From an uncultured Bacilli bacterium (lineage in GTDB: Bacteria > Bacillota_I > Bacilli_A > RFN20 > CAG-826), in NCBI GenBank assembly GCA_944327845.1, contig CALVHN010000002.1:5326-69325 (forward strand): 64,000 nucleotides of DNA. The letters run 5' to 3'. A program made the position numbers and the translations under genes. The notes under the pieces are model-generated. The model saw only the letters and a list, made by a program, of their open reading frames with translations, did not search any database and was not told the origin of the DNA. This document shows positions 36,507-44,705 of the stretch, piece after piece; the first letter of the stretch is position 1; each line of letters opens with the position of its first letter.

Positions 36507-38342
36507 ATGAAAAAGTTAGCTATTAAAACGCACTTTACAAGAAAGAATTTAATCTTTCTCGGATTAATGTTCTTTTATTGCCTTTGTGCATTAATCGGAG
36601 CAGTAGGATGTGATGCTAGTGGAATGATGAAAGAAGGAAATCCAATTCAAGCAATCGGAACTGGATTTGGTTTTCCATTAATTAATGGAAGCGTTCAATC
36701 ATACATTTTAATCGTATTATTTTTAATTTATGTTTTATTCTTTACCGCTGCTTTTATTTATGAAATGAGGTTAGCTAAATATTATGAAAATAAAATATGG
36801 TCTAAAAAATGGGCAATAATATATGGTTCAACCTTTTTAATTTCTTTAGCTTTATGGTTAACAATTGGTTTAATTGCTCAATATCCATATAACGCTGAAA
36901 CAATTGGAAATTCATTCTTATTCTTAATCGAATCATTGTTTGTTGGATTTGTTATTTATGTTCTTCTCGCTTCAATTATTGCTGCAATTATTGTTTTATA
37001 TGTTAACTTTAAAAATATTGATAAACCATTTAAATTCTTCTCAAATAAAGCTGATCTTGCAATGGAAGAAGATTATTTAGAAGAAGAGCAAGAAAAGCTT
37101 GAAGCTCAAGATAATTTAGCTGCTTCATTTGGTGAAGAACAAGTAAATCAAAATGGTGAAGCTGTTTCTTCTAATGGTGCAAATATAAATAGTAACGGCA
37201 CAGGACAAGGTGTTGTAACTAATGTTAATGAAGAATTAAAAGATAAAGAAAAAGTATTTCCTGGCTTATGTTCAATTGATTTTATTATGGACAGTCAAGA
37301 AAATAATAAAACCTTTGATGATGATGTTACCTTAGAAGAACTTGTTACTAATTTTAGAAATTATTTAGCAAAAGTTGAAAAATTATACTTTGATAAAGAA
37401 ACTATTAGAGCATTTATTTCAGGTCTTGCTGCTTCTAGACTCATCATTTTAGAAGGTTTAAGTGGTACTGGTAAATCTTCCCTTGCTAGATATTTCTCTG
37501 AATTTATTGGAGAAAAATCTTTCTTTGAACCTGTTCAAGCTACATGGAGAGATCGTACTTCTTTACTTGGCTATTATAATGATTTTTCTAAAACCTATAA
37601 TGAAACAGAATTTTTAAAGAAATTATACCAAGCAACATTCCTCCCAAATAATATTAATATCATGGTTTTAGATGAATTAAATATTTCTCGTGTTGAATAT
37701 TATTTTGCTGATTTCCTTTCAATTTTAGAATATCCAATCGATCAATGGAAACTTAAAATCTTACAATTACCATATGATTTTGAAGCTCCAATGCATTTAG
37801 AAAATGGTATTTTAGATATTTCTCCAACTACTTGGTTTGTTGGAACAGCTAATAAAGATGATTCAACTTATACGATTACTGATAAGGTTTATGATAGAGC
37901 GATTACTATTTCATTTGATGATCGTAATGAACCTTTTGAAGTAGTTGAAGATGTTGAAAAAATTAATTTATCTTATACAAAACTTATTTCTTTATTTACT
38001 GAAGCTCAAGAAACTAAAGCATATCAATTCAATAAAGAAGATTATTTAAAATTTAAAAAACTTACTGATTTTACATATGATACTTTTGATGTTACTTTTG
38101 GTAACCGTATCTTACATCAAATTGAATTATTAGTTCCAGTTTATGTTGCAAGTGGTGGAAAAAAAGAAGAAGCATTAGATTTCATCTTTGCTCGTAAGAT
38201 TATCTTTAAACTTCAAGGAAGATTTGAAGATTATATTAAAAATGGTTTAAATGAATTATTAAAGATTATTAACGATACATATGGAAATGATTCATTTAAA
38301 AATACAAAACATGAAATTTCTCGTTTATTAAGAAAGTTATAG
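36507..38342 (+). CDS. polytopic membrane protein fused to McrB-like (AAA_5) NTPase domain
   Basis: 4-5 N-terminal TM helices, an acidic linker, then Walker A GLSGTGKSS. VLDELNISRVEYYFADFLSILE, WFVGTANKDDS and DKVYDRAITISFDD align with McrB blocks IIDEINRANLSKVFGELMMLME, YIIGLMNTADRS and DYALRRRFSFIE. Confidence 0.7.
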   Translation: MKKLAIKTHFTRKNLIFLGLMFFYCLCALIGAVGCDASGMMKEGNPIQAIGTGFGFPLINGSVQSYILIVLFLIYVLFFTAAFIYEMRLAKYYENKIWSKKWAIIYGSTFLISLALWLTIGLIAQYPYNAETIGNSFLFLIESLFVGFVIYVLLASIIAAIIVLYVNFKNIDKPFKFFSNKADLAMEEDYLEEEQEKLEAQDNLAASFGEEQVNQNGEAVSSNGANINSNGTGQGVVTNVNEELKDKEKVFPGLCSIDFIMDSQENNKTFDDDVTLEELVTNFRNYLAKVEKLYFDKETIRAFISGLAASRLIILEGLSGTGKSSLARYFSEFIGEKSFFEPVQATWRDRTSLLGYYNDFSKTYNETEFLKKLYQATFLPNNINIMVLDELNISRVEYYFADFLSILEYPIDQWKLKILQLPYDFEAPMHLENGILDISPTTWFVGTANKDDSTYTITDKVYDRAITISFDDRNEPFEVVEDVEKINLSYTKLISLFTEAQETKAYQFNKEDYLKFKKLTDFTYDTFDVTFGNRILHQIELLVPVYVASGGKKEEALDFIFARKIIFKLQGRFEDYIKNGLNELLKIINDTYGNDSFKNTKHEISRLLRKL

Positions 38343-38345
38343 AGT

Positions 38346-42168: not shown

Positions 42169-42170
42169 AT

Positions 42171-44705
42171 ATGAAAAGAAAAACATTAGTTATTTTATTA
42201 ATTATTCCTTTTATAATTGGTTTACTTACTTTTGTTAGCGTCGTCGCTTTAAATAATAGTGTAGCAATATCACCAACAATTATTTTAAATTATGGAGAAA
42301 ATTTTGGATTTAGAACAAATGGCGAATATTTACTTGAATGTGAACTTCAATTTGATGGAAATGTAAATAGTGAAAATTCAATTATTGCTGAAGGTAGCAT
42401 ACCAACTTGGTCTTTATCTAAATGGAGTGGAAGTGACAGTTTAAGCCCTGAAATAACAAAAGATGAAAATAATAATTATTATTTAAACACTAAATCTGGA
42501 GAAGGAAGTTGTGTTATTACCGCAGAGTTAGAAAATGGAAGAAGCAGCGCTTCTTTTAATGCTTTTATTTATTCAAATGGTTTAATTATTATTAATCCAA
42601 CTACAACTTCAAATAATAGAATTGATGATACTAGATATTATGGAGAATATGATATTAGTTATGATTCAATCGAACCCAGTAATTTAAAGAAAAACCTTGC
42701 TAAAATCCCATTTAGTATTGATAAATATACTGAAAAAAATGATGAAATAAGAGTTATTTCAACAAGTGAAAATATTTCATATAACATTGAAACTAATGAA
42801 GTTAGTGTCCTTGAAAGTGGTGAAGCTTATTTTACATTAGGTTTTAAGGAACAAGATTATATTGAATCAACTTACCGTTTTAATATTATTGAAAATGGTG
42901 TAAATGTTTATTCTTATGAAGATTTAATGATGTGTACAAATAAATCAAATGAAGGAGAAGTTGTTTGTCTTCAAATAAATCTTCAATCACTTAGTAATAC
43001 ATATAATTCATCAAATAGAAATGATGAAATTACTTATCTTAATGAATATAAAAATTCAAATACAAAATTTTTTGGTATTTATGATTTTAACAGACAATAT
43101 GCTGATTTTTCTGATTTAATTTATTTTCAAGATCCTAAAATTGATACTTTATTTATTGATCAATTTTTAAATGAAGGAGCAGTTTCACCTAATTTTAATT
43201 ATTCTACTCAGATGAAAGTTGGAATAAGAGTCCAAAAAGATTTTTATGGAAATGGATTTAATATTAATTTAAATGAACTTGCTTATCCAAATCATGGAAA
43301 TATTGATTCAATTAGTGGAAAGTTAACACCTAATAGAGAACTTGATTTCTTCTATGGTCCTTTAACTTATGTTTCAATTGGAGATTTAGAAAATCTTCCA
43401 GTTATTAGAGCTTATCTTTGTGACAATGTTGGAATGCTACTTGATGAAGATAATATCGTAGTTAATGATTTAAAGATTCAAAATTCAAACTCTACTGATA
43501 ATATGTTTAATCTTGGATATACTGGAACAGTAATTGAAGCTCAAGGAGATAATATAACTATTAAAAATAGTATTGTAGAATGGGGGAGAACTTGTATTAG
43601 AGGTTTTTCTAGTGACAATTTATTAATTGATAATTGTATTTTACAAAATGCTGGAGAATTCATTTTAAAATTAGGTTCAAATAAAATTAACCGTATAAAT
43701 CACGACCAAAACGTTAACGTTAGATTCAAAGATCAAGTAATTACAACTTCTTTTGATGAATTCTTTAATGGAACTTATCAAGATGTAAATAGTGCTGATT
43801 ATATTTATAGTGACATATTTAACTCTTCAAGTATAACCGGGATTCCATCAAATAATTTAACAAATGAACAAAAAATAGATGCCATTAATGATATTCAAGA
43901 AGCTTTAGATAATTTAGATGGCATTGTTAATAATGATGGAAGTGTTAATTATGATGCTCATATTACGGTTAATGATACATATTTTTATAATAGTGGTATT
44001 TATTCCATCGCTTTAGAATCTTCATTTAATGGACCATATTTATATAATGGTATGCCTTATTTAGTTAATACTTTAGCAACAGTCTTTGGAATAACTCCTA
44101 AAGAAGTAGGAGGAACTTCTTATCCAGTTGAACTAACCTTAGAAGGAGACACAAGATTTTATGATTGGAAAGATGTTGATTCAATTGATGCTTCAAGCTT
44201 AATTGAAGAAAACTTTAGCTATTATTTAGAACAACTTGGTAAAGAAGGAGATACTTCATTTGGAGATATTGATGGAGCTAATTTATCAATTGATTCTTTC
44301 TTCCCAATGAAAAGAATTTTAAAAGAATATGCAATAAATAATAATTTAGCTTATAGTGAAAAAGATAATGAAGGTAATGTTCATTATTATGTCAACCGAC
44401 CTATAGCTTATTATGGTGGAGGATATAATGCATCTAAAGTTATCAATAATGTTGATCAAAACGAATATTATTCTTTTAGCGATGATATTTTAGTTGATAT
44501 TGCAAAATATGTAATTGAACATGATACTACTGGTAGCGGAGGAGAAGTTACTGATTTATTATCATTATCAACATTAGCTAAATGTGTTGTCGTTGCAATT
44601 GGATCTAATCCATTTAAGTTTGTTACTAATGGAACTATATCAAATAATGAGACTCCAATTTTATTTGATAAAGCTCCTTCAATTCAGGATTTAATTAATA
44701 ATTAA
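42171..44705 (+). CDS. large membrane-anchored or secreted protein with right-handed beta-helix (pectate-lyase-like) region
   Basis: N-terminal hydrophobic anchor ILLIIPFIIGLLTFVSVVAL. Repeated IxNSIV, IDNCIL and NAGEF turns typical of parallel beta-helix repeats. Start 3 nt after the permease stop. Confidence 0.6.
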   Translation: MKRKTLVILLIIPFIIGLLTFVSVVALNNSVAISPTIILNYGENFGFRTNGEYLLECELQFDGNVNSENSIIAEGSIPTWSLSKWSGSDSLSPEITKDENNNYYLNTKSGEGSCVITAELENGRSSASFNAFIYSNGLIIINPTTTSNNRIDDTRYYGEYDISYDSIEPSNLKKNLAKIPFSIDKYTEKNDEIRVISTSENISYNIETNEVSVLESGEAYFTLGFKEQDYIESTYRFNIIENGVNVYSYEDLMMCTNKSNEGEVVCLQINLQSLSNTYNSSNRNDEITYLNEYKNSNTKFFGIYDFNRQYADFSDLIYFQDPKIDTLFIDQFLNEGAVSPNFNYSTQMKVGIRVQKDFYGNGFNINLNELAYPNHGNIDSISGKLTPNRELDFFYGPLTYVSIGDLENLPVIRAYLCDNVGMLLDEDNIVVNDLKIQNSNSTDNMFNLGYTGTVIEAQGDNITIKNSIVEWGRTCIRGFSSDNLLIDNCILQNAGEFILKLGSNKINRINHDQNVNVRFKDQVITTSFDEFFNGTYQDVNSADYIYSDIFNSSSITGIPSNNLTNEQKIDAINDIQEALDNLDGIVNNDGSVNYDAHITVNDTYFYNSGIYSIALESSFNGPYLYNGMPYLVNTLATVFGITPKEVGGTSYPVELTLEGDTRFYDWKDVDSIDASSLIEENFSYYLEQLGKEGDTSFGDIDGANLSIDSFFPMKRILKEYAINNNLAYSEKDNEGNVHYYVNRPIAYYGGGYNASKVINNVDQNEYYSFSDDILVDIAKYVIEHDTTGSGGEVTDLLSLSTLAKCVVVAIGSNPFKFVTNGTISNNETPILFDKAPSIQDLINN

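What the first reader, a model, noticed from the sequence alone, without database searches (positions are those of the whole stretch)
36507..44705. Membrane-anchored McrB-like AAA+ NTPase and Zn-ribbon partner translationally coupled to an ABC exporter and a beta-helix protein
Five genes are linked by 0-4 nt gaps or overlaps: 36507-38342, 38346-39746, 39743-40555, 40555-42168 and 42171-44705. The first combines a polytopic membrane domain of about 200 aa with an NTPase domain showing the McrB/AAA_5 blocks (Walker A GTGKSS, the DELN Walker B region, and the WFVGTANKDDS and RAITISFDD blocks). McrB homologs normally carry soluble DNA-reading N-domains and pair with a McrC nuclease. Here the downstream partner is a 466-aa protein with a C-terminal CxxC-CxxC zinc ribbon and no clear PD-(D/E)xK motif. 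The module then runs directly into an ABC ATPase, a permease and a large beta-helix protein, all inside the SipW island. Two readings are possible. It may be a membrane-tethered McrBC-like defence system with an odd architecture. Alternatively the AAA+/Zn-ribbon pair may be repurposed for export or assembly of the surface proteins. Either would be unusual.
Basis: partly seen in the sequence, partly recalled or inferred. Interest (0 to 1): 0.7.

Follow-up and report, generated by a model that had tools for sequence, protein, structure and literature searches.

The report
McrBC-derived motor in surface-protein operon
A restriction-enzyme motor (McrB GTPase plus a nuclease-dead McrC partner) has been anchored in the membrane and built into a conserved operon with a SipW signal peptidase, an ABC exporter and secreted proteins, in hundreds of uncultured gut Bacillota species; it most likely helps export or assemble a cell-surface structure rather than cut phage DNA.

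Summary
In detail: five tightly coupled genes lie at the stated coordinates, with the stated motifs.

**What the pair is.**
- The 611-aa protein has four TM helices plus a McrB-type AAA+ domain. Against E. coli McrB, hhalign gives 88% probability and E 3e-6. Against the MoxR protein RavA it gives 9.7%.
- Its signature is N-x-D-[D/E], the "NxD" McrB branch.
- The 466-aa partner is a McrC homolog. Its relatives hit DUF2357, and McrC is the top structural match.
- The partner carries a degenerate PD-(D/E)xK fold and a Zn ribbon.

**Wider context.** The five genes are the core of a larger block, window 33682-45835:
- secreted proteins with a new G-F-A/S-x-W signal;
- SipW;
- the McrB-like and McrC-like genes;
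- an ABC ATPase and an ABC-2 permease;
- a membrane-anchored beta-helix protein;
- a Flg_new lipoprotein.

**Conservation.**
- The gene order is kept in about 80 species-level MAGs.
- At least 583 genomes encode a relative of the McrB-like protein.
- Flanking genes differ between genomes, and component identities co-vary (r 0.75-0.92).

**Interpretation.** It fits the "CoCoPALM" class, which one 2024 paper named in a single paragraph and never characterised. The function is inferred, not shown.

The parts
33682..34464 (+). Secreted 260-aa protein with an N-terminal signal ending in TTGFATWVVG. Candidate SipW substrate or fibre subunit.
   Evidence: ORF and sequence. Motif scan. Homologs lie upstream of SipW in 55 of 85 loci. 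Belongs to divergent family A4. No Pfam, NCBIfam or PDB sequence match.
34492..35307 (+). Second secreted paralog (271 aa), signal ending in TVGFAAWTITAG.
35364..36488 (+). Long-form SipW-type (ER/archaeal-type) signal peptidase I. It has an extra N-terminal TM helix and a C-terminal tail of about 130 aa.
   Evidence: NCBIfam SipW 2.7e-15 and TIGR02228 3.8e-13, both below the curated cut-offs. GSMS, VHRI and GDAN motifs seen by eye. Found at -1.1 kb in 82 of 85 loci.
36507..37016 (+). Four-helix transmembrane domain of the McrB-like protein (residues 1-170).
   Evidence: AF2 helices at 12-35, 63-94, 100-123 and 130-169 with pLDDT 75-92. Conserved across 31 homologs.
37017..37265 (+). Acidic helix (residues 180-207, coiled-coil-like) followed by a disordered G/N-rich linker (about 208-245).
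   Evidence: AF2 secondary structure, with pLDDT below 50 for residues 208-252. Length-variable in alignment A2.
37266..38342 (+). McrB-type AAA+ (probable GTPase) domain of the NxD branch.
   Evidence: hhalign to E. coli McrB: 88%, E 3e-6. PDB phmmer best hit is McrB. PADLOC PDC-M26A 1.5e-38. Pfam AAA_5 in 31 of 31 homologs.
37455..37481 (+). Walker A, GLSGTGKSS (residues 317-325).
   Evidence: Invariant in A2.
37662..37682 (+). Walker B region, MVLDELN (residues 386-392).
   Evidence: D389, E390 and N392 invariant. Aligned to the IIDEIN segment of the McrB Walker B region by hhalign.
37851..37862 (+). McrB signature / sensor-1 motif, N449-K-D451-D452 (NxD followed by D).
   Evidence: N449, D451 and D452 are invariant and K450 nearly so. 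Aligned without a gap to McrB NTAD. Relatives read NHDE, NTDE, NEDE, NNDD and NVDD.
38346..39746 (+). McrC homolog. It has a DUF2357-like N-terminal domain, helical inserts, a degenerate PD-(D/E)xK-like domain and a C-terminal Zn ribbon.
39606..39668 (+). Zn ribbon, C421-P-V-C424 ... C438-L-D-C441. It is followed by the conserved basic tail W457-I-K459-S-x-R462-R463: W457 is invariant, K459 is conserved in 97% of sequences, and positions 462 and 463 are basic in 86% and 97%.
   Evidence: Invariant columns. Zinc-ribbon Pfam hits across homologs. Profile hits to eL43 ribbons.
39743..40555 (+). ABC ATPase (DrrA / ABC-2 type). Its start overlaps the McrC-like stop by 4 nt.
   Evidence: Pfam ABC_tran 5.8e-25. 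TIGR01188 drrA 8.3e-53. Found in 81 of 85 loci at +3.1 kb.
40555..42168 (+). ABC-2-type permease with roughly 11-13 TM helices.
   Evidence: ABC_tran_2 in 5 of 17 homologs (8.5e-11) and ABC2_membrane_4 in 3 of 17. Hydropathy count. Found in 78 of 85 loci.
42171..44705 (+). Extracellular 844-aa protein anchored by an N-terminal TM helix, with a right-handed beta-helix segment.
   Evidence: Beta_helix Pfam in 4 of 22 homologs. The TM anchor is conserved, with L10, P13 and F14 invariant. Found in 74 of 85 loci at +5.5 kb.
44726..45835 (+). Lipoprotein (lipobox LTSC) with a C-terminal Listeria-Bacteroides (Flg_new) repeat.
   Evidence: Pfam Flg_new 2.6e-7. Found in 65 of 85 loci at +7.9 kb.
45975..49546 (-). 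Two further genes with the same signal motif: 219 aa (48887-49546, VGFSSFYIG) and 970 aa (45975-48887, VGFSTFIIV). Candidate minor or large subunits.
   Evidence: Homologs of the 970-aa protein lie next to the block in 15 loci.
50425..57993 (+). Three large ORFs of 890, 802 and 870 aa. The 890-aa and 870-aa proteins carry the signal motif (IGFSSWSV, VGFSSFVLG); the 802-aa protein has a weaker version (IGLASFNL). The 870-aa ORF probably starts at the internal MSKNNK.
   Evidence: Sequences.

Best explanation
The five genes are the core of a vertically inherited operon of about 12 kb (window 33682-45835), plus satellite substrate genes. The operon builds or exports a cell-surface protein structure, most likely a SipW-processed fibre, pilus or coat.

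**Shown:**
- Gene 1 is a four-TM membrane protein with a cytoplasmic AAA+ domain of the McrB family, NxD branch.
- Gene 2 is its McrC partner. It keeps the DUF2357-type N-terminal domain, the part that plugs the McrB ring in solved McrBC complexes. It also keeps a degenerate nuclease fold and a Zn ribbon, but has lost the catalytic triad.
- Both genes are locked in invariant order between a SipW-type signal peptidase and an ABC-2 exporter.
- They are followed by a membrane-anchored beta-helix protein and a lipoprotein.
- The block is surrounded by 1-9 genes for proteins that share a distinctive signal: K/R n-region, h-region, then G-F-(A/S)-x-(W/F)-(V/I)-(I/V).

**Inferred mechanism:**
1. Precursors are inserted by Sec and held in the membrane by this signal.
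2. SipW cleaves at or near G-F-A. This exposes a hydrophobic N-terminal strand that could serve in strand-exchange polymerisation, as in TasA-type fibres.
3. The McrB-like protein forms a membrane-embedded hexamer, about 24 TM helices. Its nucleotide cycle is triggered asymmetrically by the McrC-like plug.
4. That motion is passed through the TM domain to SipW, the ABC permease and the substrates.
5. The ring would then act as the cytoplasmic motor or gate of the assembly platform. This is functionally analogous to the PilB-PilC pair of type IV pili.
6. The ABC-2 exporter, the beta-helix protein and the lipoprotein act on the outer face.

The pair is not a restriction enzyme.
For: **Pair identity**
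- hhalign of family profile A2 to E. coli McrB: 88%, E 3e-6, 168 columns running from Walker A through the signature motif to the Arg region.
- hhalign to RavA: 9.7%.
- PDB sequence search: the best hit is McrB.
- Relatives with coiled-coil N-termini are each followed by a DUF2357 gene.
- The signature reads N-x-D-[DE] throughout.

**Nuclease loss**
- No conserved Lys exists in the partner's nuclease-like domain.
- The first Asp is Asn in the window copy.

**One module**
- Start and stop codons overlap or lie close together.
- No terminator-like hairpin lies between the genes of the block, 33.0-45.8 kb. The only hairpin found there, 42536-42558, is inside the 844-aa gene.
- The order SipW, McrB, McrC, ABC, permease, 800-aa protein, lipoprotein is kept at fixed spacing. 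The components are found in 82, 85, 84, 81, 78, 74 and 65 of 85 loci. Most of the gaps are contig ends.
- Pairwise identities of the seven proteins co-vary, r = 0.75-0.92 over 56 loci.

**Core gene, not mobile**
- Flanks differ between genomes and are housekeeping genes: ychF, ispF, gltX, rpoE and fba here, pnp and rpsO in L001.
- No relatives occur in 2.9 million viral contigs.
- The AAA+ core is nearly invariant.

**Substrates**
- 179 ORFs in 73 of 85 loci carry the G-F-A/S-x-W motif, beside the block on both sides.
- The window holds seven proteins with the motif, plus an eighth (802 aa) with a weaker version.

**Link between this McrB branch and signal peptidases**
- A distant relative with a TM plus coiled-coil N-terminus (L086) also sits next to a Flg_new protein, an S26-like peptidase and a DUF2357 gene.
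- PMC11090510 (section 7) reports a 'large clade' of such systems and calls them CoCoPALM.
Against: - No experiment exists for any member, and all carriers are uncultured MAGs.
- The small secreted proteins match no TasA/Peptidase_M73 model, no TIGR04088 SipW-cognate signal model and no solved pilin. Calling them fibre subunits is therefore inference.
- SipW scores fall below the NCBIfam cut-offs.
- The AF2 models are of only moderate confidence (pLDDT 72 and 75.5).
- Retention of a nuclease-like fold and a Zn ribbon hints at nucleic-acid binding, which a pure protein-export role does not explain.
- The best PADLOC match is a defence-candidate model.
- A conserved operon shows co-function. It does not show what the motor does mechanically.
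Confidence: 0.6

Rival explanations
1. This is a membrane-tethered McrBC-like anti-phage or anti-plasmid system. The TM domain would sense envelope perturbation or DNA entry, and the GTPase plus McrC-like protein would trigger an effector, for example the ABC transporter or membrane damage.
For: - McrBC ancestry.
- The best PADLOC hit is the defence candidate PDC-M26A at 1.5e-38.
- The nearest annotated relatives lie on plasmids next to helicases, a macro-domain gene and an IS element.
- A serine recombinase gene lies 4 kb downstream.
Against: - The PADLOC match covers only the AAA+ core. The model's coiled-coil part matches the soluble relatives, not this protein.
- The partner and the other three genes hit no PADLOC model.
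- The nuclease triad is lost, and no alternative nuclease, HEPN or toxin gene is present in the block.
- Synteny with SipW, the ABC genes and the surface proteins is fixed in about 80 species, and identities co-vary.
- The flanks are housekeeping genes.
- No relatives were found in viral contigs.
- Sequence conservation is very strong, which is atypical for defence genes.
Confidence: 0.12
2. This is a nucleic-acid machine at the membrane. The McrB-like ring would keep its ancestral DNA or RNA translocase activity. The nuclease-dead McrC, with its PD-(D/E)xK fold, Zn ribbon and basic tail, would hold the nucleic acid. The surface fibre and ABC parts would then form a DNA uptake or DNA export (matrix eDNA) apparatus.
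For: - The nuclease-like fold and an invariant Zn ribbon with a conserved W-x-K..RR tail are retained.
- Canonical McrB translocates DNA (established knowledge; PMC6624300).
- Bell et al. argue that inactivated PD-(D/E)xK domains in related systems keep a nucleic-acid-binding role (PMC11090510, section 9).
Against: - The McrB-like protein has no DNA-binding N-domain; it has a TM domain instead.
- The block has no channel, ComEC-like, FtsK-like or nuclease gene.
- Zn ribbons and dead nuclease folds also serve as protein-protein modules.
Confidence: 0.1
3. The AAA+ protein is a MoxR/RavA-type chaperone that matures or inserts a membrane or secreted protein. The partner would be an unrelated adaptor.
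For: - JGI names two homologs 'MoxR-like ATPase'.
- The DExN Walker B form is shared by both families (my knowledge).
Against: - hhalign to RavA gives only 9.7% over 41 columns around Walker A, against 88% over 168 columns to McrB.
- No VWA-domain partner is present in the block.
- The partner is McrC-like.
- The spacing from the signature Asn to the downstream D-R matches McrB and not the longer MoxR spacing. The McrB spacing is seen; the MoxR consensus is from my memory.
- The model is poor (pLDDT below 50) in the loops that distinguish the clades.
Confidence: 0.05
4. The McrBC-like pair is a regulatory or checkpoint device rather than a motor. It would gate SipW or ABC activity, for instance coupling surface-structure production to the nucleotide or GTP pool, or to second messengers.
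For: - In a related locus an EAL (c-di-GMP phosphodiesterase) gene sits between the McrB and McrC homologs.
- In L015 the ABC ATPase appears, by eye, to carry an N-terminal receiver-like extension.
- McrB GTPase activity is switched on by McrC in the canonical system (PMC6624300).
Against: - It cannot be distinguished from the motor model with the present data.
- Strict 1:1 co-occurrence and translational coupling suggest a structural subunit rather than a dispensable regulator.
Confidence: 0.13

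Closest known systems
[quoted passage not shown]
   Same: - A McrB-like GTPase of the NxD branch is fused to a membrane-anchoring N-terminus.
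- It is paired with a McrC (DUF2357) homolog and associated with a signal-peptidase-family gene.
- A relative with a TM plus coiled-coil N-terminus, next to an S26-like peptidase, was recovered here.
   Different: - The published description says 'FtsB-like' (one TM plus a coiled coil). This protein has a conserved four-TM domain followed by one acidic helix.
- No DivIC/FtsB Pfam hit appeared among the listed families.
- The paper gives no sequences, no gene lists and no mention of the ABC exporter, the beta-helix protein, the lipoprotein or the G-F-A-x-W substrates. It defers analysis to a paper I could not find.
- Identity with their clade therefore cannot be verified.
Canonical McrBC type IV restriction enzyme (E. 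coli, T. gammatolerans; PDB 6hz4, 6ut5)
   Same: - An AAA+ McrB-type domain with Walker A, DExN and an Asn/Asp signature at the same spacing.
- A partner whose N-terminal domain and overall fold best match McrC.
- Adjacent, translationally coupled genes.
   Different: - There is no DNA-reading N-domain; a TM domain takes its place.
- The McrC catalytic D...(D/E)xK is lost.
- The signature is NxD[D/E] rather than NxxD.
- The locus is a conserved core operon, not a variable defence locus.
CoCoNuT systems (CnuB/CnuC; PMC11090510) and the PADLOC candidate PDC-M26
   Same: - The same NxD branch.
- The McrC homologs combine DUF2357, helical inserts, an inactivated PD-(D/E)xK domain and CPxC zinc ribbons. 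The paper describes the same degeneration pattern for Type II CnuC.
- The PDC-M26A model hits the AAA+ core at 1.5e-38.
   Different: - CoCoNuT GTPases carry long soluble coiled coils and are always accompanied by HEPN or other nucleases.
- Here there is a TM domain, no nuclease, and surface-protein and export genes.
- The coiled-coil part of the PADLOC model does not match this protein.
TapA-SipW-TasA (Bacillus) and other SipW-dependent matrix-fibre operons, e.g. the C. perfringens sipW-bsa operon
   Same: - A dedicated SipW-type peptidase is encoded next to small secreted proteins.
- The signal of those proteins ends in a conserved Gly/aromatic motif.
- Several paralogous substrates occur per locus.
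   Different: - The substrates match neither Peptidase_M73/TasA nor the TIGR04088 signal model.
- Known SipW operons contain no AAA+ motor and no ABC transporter.
- SipW here is a long form with an extra TM helix and a cytoplasmic tail.
Type IV pilus / type II secretion assembly core (a works-like comparison only)
   Same: The logic is similar: subunits anchored in the membrane by a special signal, a dedicated peptidase, a hexameric cytoplasmic NTPase coupled to a polytopic membrane platform, and several minor or large subunits sharing the N-terminal signal.
   Different: - There is no homology to PilB, PilC, PilD or pilins.
- The signal has the opposite layout, with the motif after the h-region rather than before it.
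- The NTPase is an AAA+ McrB type, not a PilB-type secretion ATPase, and it is itself the membrane protein.
PcdA of Staphylococcus aureus (a McrB-family protein co-opted for division-plane selection; PMC10602043, abstract)
   Same: It is a precedent that a McrB-family NTPase can be recruited from restriction to a housekeeping cell-envelope function.
   Different: PcdA works with the division machinery. Nothing I read describes a membrane domain, a McrC partner or a secretion context for it. I read only the title and the start of the abstract.

Membership tests
McrBC (McrB-type AAA+ GTPase plus McrC) | AAA+ domain of the McrB type, with Walker A, DExN Walker B, an Asn/Asp signature at sensor 1 and downstream Arg | tested here: met
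   hhalign of A2 to E. coli McrB: 88%, E 3e-6, 168 columns, with NKDD aligned to NTAD without a gap. The best PDB sequence hit is McrB, at E 0.035. RavA reaches only 9.7%.
McrBC (McrB-type AAA+ GTPase plus McrC) | The AAA+ fold is closest to McrB among solved structures | tested here: inconclusive
McrBC (McrB-type AAA+ GTPase plus McrC) | An adjacent partner with the McrC N-terminal (DUF2357-type) domain | tested here: met
McrBC (McrB-type AAA+ GTPase plus McrC) | A catalytic PD-(D/E)xK triad in McrC | tested here: not met
   Only remnants survive: Asp at column 316 in 79% of sequences (Asn in the window copy) and an acidic residue at column 325 in 76%. No conserved Lys exists.
McrBC (McrB-type AAA+ GTPase plus McrC) | An N-terminal DNA-recognition domain on McrB | tested here: not met
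   Residues 1-170 are four TM helices. No DNA-binding Pfam family hits the protein.
McrBC (McrB-type AAA+ GTPase plus McrC) | GTP-dependent hexamer stimulated by McrC | not testable with these tools
   This needs biochemistry, or at least a multimer structure prediction.
NxD branch of McrB GTPases (Bell et al. 2024) | The signature is shortened to N-x-D, usually followed by D or E | tested here: met
   The window copy reads N449-K-D451-D452. In the 31-homolog alignment N449, D451 and D452 are invariant and K450 is nearly invariant. Relatives read NHDE, NTDE, NEDE, NNDD, NVDD and NRDD. Caveat: NKDD can also be read as NxxD, and hhalign aligns it to NTAD without a gap.
CoCoPALM (PMC11090510) | Association with a signal-peptidase-family gene | tested here: met
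   A SipW-type gene lies immediately upstream in 82 of 85 loci.
CoCoPALM (PMC11090510) | GTPase fused to an FtsB-like TM plus coiled-coil domain | tested here: inconclusive
   The protein has four TM helices plus one acidic helix at residues 180-207. No DivIC/FtsB family appears among the Pfam hits listed for 31 members. The relative P0329 does have a TM plus coiled-coil N-terminus.
CoCoPALM (PMC11090510) | Coiled-coil elements in the McrC homolog | tested here: inconclusive
SipW/TasA-type matrix-fibre system | A SipW-type (ER/archaeal-type) signal peptidase I | tested here: inconclusive
   NCBIfam SipW scores 56.4 bits against a cut-off of 190. TIGR02228 scores 49.6 bits against 51.85. The catalytic-region motifs are present by eye.
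SipW/TasA-type matrix-fibre system | Substrates of the TasA/camelysin (Peptidase_M73) family, or carrying the TIGR04088 SipW-cognate signal | tested here: not met
   None of 42 family members hits these models in Pfam or NCBIfam. The PDB profile search finds no TasA.
MoxR-type AAA+ chaperone with VWA partner | A MoxR-type AAA+ sequence and an adjacent VWA-domain protein | tested here: not met
   hhalign to RavA gives 9.7%. No VWA domain occurs in any gene of the block. Only the fold search favours MoxR.
Known anti-phage defence systems (PADLOC 2.0) | All components match the models of one system | tested here: not met
   Only the AAA+ core matches PDC-M26A. The partner, permease and 844-aa protein match nothing. 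The ABC ATPase gives generic ABC-type hits.

The most novel reading that the evidence does not exclude
The block encodes a previously unrecognised kind of surface-filament or protein-export machine of monoderm bacteria. Its engine would be a membrane-embedded McrB-type GTPase ring driven by a nuclease-dead McrC 'plug'. In other words, a restriction-enzyme motor has been domesticated into a secretion or assembly motor. It would work with a dedicated SipW peptidase, an ABC-2 exporter and a new class of G-F-A-x-W signal proteins, some of them phase-variable. It would be a core envelope system in hundreds of uncultured gut Bacilli, Mollicutes-like and Christensenellales species.
Probability: 0.35. 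Interest if true: 0.85.

Novelty: new variant of a known kind. Interest (0 to 1): 0.7.

Why it matters
- If the McrBC-like pair really powers or gates assembly of a surface structure, it would be a clear case of a defence motor being recruited into envelope biogenesis.
- It would also be a secretion or assembly engine unrelated to the known ones (Sec, Tat, type IV pili, sortase pili, T7SS).
- The carriers are abundant gut lineages that are almost unstudied (RFN20/RF39-like Bacilli, Acholeplasmatales-like and Christensenellales MAGs). Their surface biology is unknown, and the locus probably determines their adhesins.
- The work also gives content to the CoCoPALM class, which has a name but no description. 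It supplies a full gene inventory, a substrate signal motif and testable predictions.

Tried and rejected
1. **TasA/camelysin identity of the small secreted proteins.** None of 42 members hits Pfam or NCBIfam, and the PDB profile search finds only noise. I keep this only as an analogy.
3. **PADLOC as evidence for defence.** The PDC-M26A hit is confined to the AAA+ core. The model's coiled-coil half matches soluble relatives only.
4. **Partner against E. coli McrC by hhalign.** Nothing was found. E. coli McrC belongs to a different Pfam family (PF10117) from DUF2357, so this is uninformative.
5. **HMM profile of the AAA family against PDB sequences.** Only McrB appears, at E 0.56. That is too weak alone, so I used hhalign.
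6. **Supplements of the CoCoNuT paper.** A search for CoCoPALM, FtsB, signal peptidase, SipW and TasA found no occurrences.
7. **Literature searches** for a CoCoPALM follow-up, SipW with McrB, and PDC-M26 found nothing beyond PMC11090510.
8. **Cluster look-up for source names.** None of the ten window proteins carries a name.
9. **Organism look-up through the encoding contig.** It returned only an unnamed metagenome scaffold.
10. **The promoter scan** is uninformative in DNA of 26% GC: fewer hits than in shuffles.
11. **The afdb50 fold library** was unavailable.
12. **Viral contigs** hold no relatives.

Full report
**1. The observation**

They are joined by a 3-nt gap, a 4-nt overlap, a 1-nt overlap and a 2-nt gap. 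The region has about 26% G+C, like the rest of the window.

The block lies between ordinary housekeeping genes. Upstream are ychF, ispF, gltX, an rpoE-like HARE-HTH gene and fba. A clean terminator-like hairpin follows fba at 32806-32827. No terminator-like hairpin lies between the genes from 33.0 to 45.8 kb; the only other one found is inside the 844-aa gene.

In an alignment of 31 homologs they are invariant or nearly so.

**2. The 611-aa protein**

The AF2 model (pLDDT 71.9) shows, in order:
- four long hydrophobic helices at 12-35, 63-94, 100-123 and 130-169;
- an acidic helix at 180-207;
- a disordered Gly/Asn-rich linker;
- an AAA+ domain with a helical lid.

K/R clusters lie before TM1, between TM2 and TM3, and after TM4. 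This puts both termini, and therefore the AAA+ domain, in the cytoplasm. That placement is inferred from the positive-inside rule.

Pfam gives only weak AAA_5 hits: 31 of 31 homologs, best 4e-5.

The result is split:
- Sequence profiles are clearer. hhalign of the family alignment against E. coli McrB gives 88% probability, E 3e-6, over 168 columns. The match runs from Walker A through Walker B to the signature motif and the Arg region.
- Against E. coli RavA, hhalign gives 9.7% over 41 columns around the P-loop.
- In the PDB sequence search McrB is the top hit, and RavA does not appear.

The signature is N449-K-D451-D452. Relatives found by an exhaustive HMM search number 946 clusters at E <= 1e-30 and 6485 at E <= 1e-10. 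They read NNDD, NEDE, NVDD, NRDD, NHDE and NTDE. The conserved pattern is therefore N-x-D-[D/E]. This is how Bell et al. define the 'NxD' branch of McrB GTPases (PMC11090510, section 7).

Many of those relatives keep only residues of about 185-610 of the query and carry long coiled coils instead of the TM domain. Each one I looked at is followed by a DUF2357 gene.

The PADLOC hit to PDC-M26A (1.5e-38) reflects this shared ancestry. The model's coiled-coil half matches the soluble relatives, not the window protein.

**3. The 466-aa partner**

The window copy alone hits nothing but zinc-ribbon models. Its family tells more:
- Twenty-nine members, averaging 45% column identity, were aligned. Fifteen of them hit Pfam DUF2357, the McrC N-terminal domain, best 1.8e-7.
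- Foldseek also puts E. coli McrC first (E 0.017, probability 0.57). After it come PD-(D/E)xK nucleases such as BbvCI, BamHI, EndoMS, Cap4 and CinB. These hits are individually not significant.
- Column statistics show only remnants of a nuclease site. Asp occupies column 316 in 79% of sequences but is Asn in the window copy. An acidic residue occupies column 325 in 76%. No conserved Lys exists.
- The ribbon C421-P-x-C424...C438-x-x-C441 and W457 are invariant. K459 (97%) and basic residues at 462-463 (86% and 97%) are nearly so.

This architecture, of DUF2357, helical inserts, an inactivated PD-(D/E)xK domain and CPxC ribbons, is what Bell et al. describe for degenerate McrC homologs of the NxD branch.

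The pair is therefore McrBC-derived and almost certainly not a DNA-cleaving enzyme.

**4. The other three genes and the true extent of the module**

- Gene 3 is a DrrA-like ABC ATPase.
- Gene 4 is an ABC-2-type permease with roughly a dozen TM helices.
- Gene 5 has a conserved N-terminal TM anchor and a large extracellular part. The Beta_helix model hits it in only 4 of 22 homologs.

Looking outward:
- A SipW-type signal peptidase lies 18 nt upstream. By eye it has GSMS, VHRI and GDAN motifs, an extra N-terminal TM helix and a cytoplasmic tail.
- Before SipW come two small secreted paralogs.
- After gene 5 comes a lipoprotein with a Flg_new repeat.

All 80 loci retrieved are uncultured gut or rumen MAGs. 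They are labelled Bacilli, Mollicutes, Acholeplasmatales, Anaeroplasmataceae, Ca. Onthovivens, Ca. Enteromonas, Ca. Scatosoma, Christensenellaceae or Clostridia.

tblastn of the window proteins against the 85 loci then held gave these results:

| Component | Position relative to the McrB-like gene | Loci with it (of 85) |
|---|---|---|
| SipW | -1.1 kb | 82 |
| McrB-like | 0 | 85 |
| McrC-like | +1.9 kb | 84 |
| ABC ATPase | +3.1 kb | 81 |
| Permease | +3.9 kb | 78 |
| ~800-aa protein | +5.5 kb | 74 |
| Lipoprotein | +7.9 kb | 65 |

- Most of the gaps are contig ends.
- None of the window's other flanking genes is conserved. In L001 the block follows pnp and rpsO instead.
- Identities of the seven proteins to the window copies co-vary across 56 complete loci, r = 0.75-0.92, as expected if the block is inherited as a unit.
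- No relative exists in 2.9 million viral contigs.

These are the properties of a lineage-wide core operon, not of a defence island.

**5. The substrates**

The small proteins upstream share a signal with three parts: a K/R n-region, an h-region, and then (A/S)-L-x-(S/T/G)-(V/T)-G-F-(A/S)-x-(W/F)-(V/I)-(I/V).
- A pattern search finds 179 such ORFs in 73 of 85 loci, 1-9 per locus, on both sides of the block.
- The set includes proteins of 1000-1550 aa.
- In the window the motif also heads the 219-aa and 970-aa genes on the minus strand at 45975-49546.
- It also heads the 890-aa and 870-aa genes downstream, with a weaker version on the 802-aa gene.
- The small proteins form one very divergent family, with conserved F-x-W-G..F...N-P..Y-Y and a C-terminal strand.
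- They match nothing in Pfam, NCBIfam or PDB sequences. In particular they match neither TasA/Peptidase_M73 nor the SipW-cognate signal model TIGR04088.

They are adjacent to a dedicated SipW. G-F-A also fits the -3/-1 rule for signal peptidase I (my knowledge). I therefore infer that SipW cleaves at or near that site, leaving a hydrophobic N-terminal strand (x-W-V-I...). Several paralogs plus a few giant proteins with the same N-terminus is the usual make-up of a fibre with major and minor or tip subunits. This is inference.

**6. How it most likely works**

Shown:
- The architecture of each protein.
- The McrBC ancestry of the pair.
- Loss of the nuclease site.
- The fixed operon.
- The shared signal on neighbouring secreted proteins.

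Inferred, by analogy with solved McrBC complexes (PMC6624300 and the entries hit):
1. The McrB-like protein forms a hexamer. Its TM domains would make a collar of about 24 helices in the membrane.
2. The McrC-like protein inserts its DUF2357 domain into the ring and triggers asymmetric nucleotide hydrolysis.
3. The resulting motion is passed through the TM collar to SipW, the ABC permease and the membrane-held precursors. It would drive or gate their release and polymerisation.
4. The ABC-2 exporter, the beta-helix protein and the lipoprotein act on the outer face.

In logic, though not in ancestry, this resembles the type IV pilus core: a special signal, a dedicated peptidase, a hexameric NTPase and a polytopic platform.

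I give about 0.9 to 'McrBC-derived pair in one conserved module'. I give about 0.65 to 'the role is surface-protein export or assembly rather than defence'. I give about 0.3 to the specific motor mechanism. My overall confidence in the statement is 0.6.

**7. Rivals**

- **Defence.** McrBC ancestry, the PADLOC hit and the plasmid-borne relatives speak for it. The evidence in sections 3 and 4 speaks against it.
- **A nucleic-acid role at the membrane.** This would explain why a dead nuclease fold, a Zn ribbon and a basic tail are kept. However, the McrB-like protein has no DNA-binding domain and the block has no channel gene.
- **A regulator rather than a motor.** This cannot be excluded. In the related locus L086 an EAL gene sits between the McrB and McrC homologs, which hints at a link to c-di-GMP.

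**8. Comparison with what is known**

The closest description is one paragraph in Bell et al. 2024. It names 'CoCoPALM' for a large clade of NxD McrB-like GTPases fused to an FtsB-like TM plus coiled-coil domain. The clade is said to be associated with signal-peptidase-family 'pilus assembly' proteins and to have coiled coils in both subunits. Analysis is deferred to a later paper.
- I found no such paper, and nothing in the supplements held as text.
- The window system meets the NxD and signal-peptidase criteria.
- The FtsB-like criterion is not clearly met, because the protein has four TM helices plus one helix.
- A relative that does look like TM plus coiled coil, P0329, also sits beside an S26-like peptidase, a Flg_new protein and a DUF2357 gene. 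The two forms therefore probably belong to one radiation.
- PcdA of S. aureus is a precedent for recruiting a McrB-family protein to an envelope function (PMC10602043; abstract only).
- As far as the searchable literature shows, four things are new here: the full conserved gene set (ABC-2 exporter, beta-helix protein, lipoprotein), the four-TM form of the GTPase, the G-F-A-x-W substrate signal, and the phyletic spread.

**9. Verdict**

McrBC-like identity holds, and the 'repurposed for export or assembly' reading is favoured over defence.
- Novelty: a new variant of a kind that has been named but not characterised.
- Interest: 0.7. A specialist would find a domesticated restriction motor inside a secretion or assembly operon surprising. 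The locus is widespread in gut bacteria and gives direct experimental handles. Set against that, the idea was foreshadowed in print, and the function remains inferred.

Noticed in passing
window 49536-50435 (inverted-repeat arms 49536-49589 and 50382-50435; resolvase gene 49642-50301, minus strand): A serine-recombinase (Resolvase) gene is bracketed by a 54-nt inverted repeat that is 76% complementary, with an exact 20-nt core, AAAAGTTCATAAATGTATAC. The arms overlap the start codons of two divergent operons that both encode G-F-S-x-(W/F) signal proteins (the 219/970-aa pair and the 890/802/870-aa trio). It looks like an invertible phase-variation switch that chooses between two sets of surface proteins.
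   Followed up: partly
window 33682-35307, 45975-49546 (minus strand) and 50425-57993; 73 of 85 related loci: A new N-terminal signal class: K/R n-region, h-region, then (A/S)L-x-(S/T/G)(V/T)-G-F-(A/S)-x-(W/F)-(V/I)(I/V). It heads 179 ORFs of 180 to 1550 aa next to the block. No match to TIGR04088, TasA or any Pfam family.
   Followed up: partly
window 45975-46754 (minus strand) and 57094-57993 (plus strand): The 970-aa and 870-aa motif proteins share a homologous C-terminal domain of about 220 aa (32% identity, E 6e-33). It begins C-F-x-K-G-T, which by eye resembles a Hint/intein-type autoprocessing module.
   Followed up: partly
L086 1-5034 (relative found through P0329): A distant relative has the order Flg_new protein, S26-like peptidase, TM plus coiled-coil McrB-like gene, EAL-domain protein, DUF2357 protein. 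A c-di-GMP phosphodiesterase gene therefore sits between the McrB and McrC homologs.
   Followed up: no
L015 about 13200-15160 (offsets +3201 and +3633 from the McrB-like gene): In this locus an extra 137-aa gene lies between the McrC-like and ABC genes; it has a CxxC..CxxC N-terminus and two TM helices. The ABC ATPase is 387 aa, with an N-terminal extension that looks like a receiver domain by eye.
   Followed up: no
window 32993-33538: A small 181-aa polytopic membrane protein lies just upstream of the first secreted-protein gene. It has homologs in the same position in L009 and L015 (32-44% identity). It may be an occasional extra component of the locus.
   Followed up: no
window 35364-36488 and homologs: SipW here is a long form, 310-406 aa in the loci listed, against a 189-position NCBIfam SipW model. 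It has a very conserved extra N-terminal TM helix (consensus like SxEIIxLxVTxxxxxSFxxxFTxLF) and a cytoplasmic C-terminal tail. This suggests contacts with other membrane or cytoplasmic parts of the system.
   Followed up: no
L007, L020, L022, L023, L028, L038, L073 (record titles): Several MAG contigs carrying this Bacilli-type block are labelled Lachnospiraceae, Oscillospiraceae, Prevotella, Paludibacteraceae or Gemmiger in their records. Their block proteins are 46-65% identical to the window copies. These labels are probably binning or taxonomy-labelling errors.
   Followed up: no
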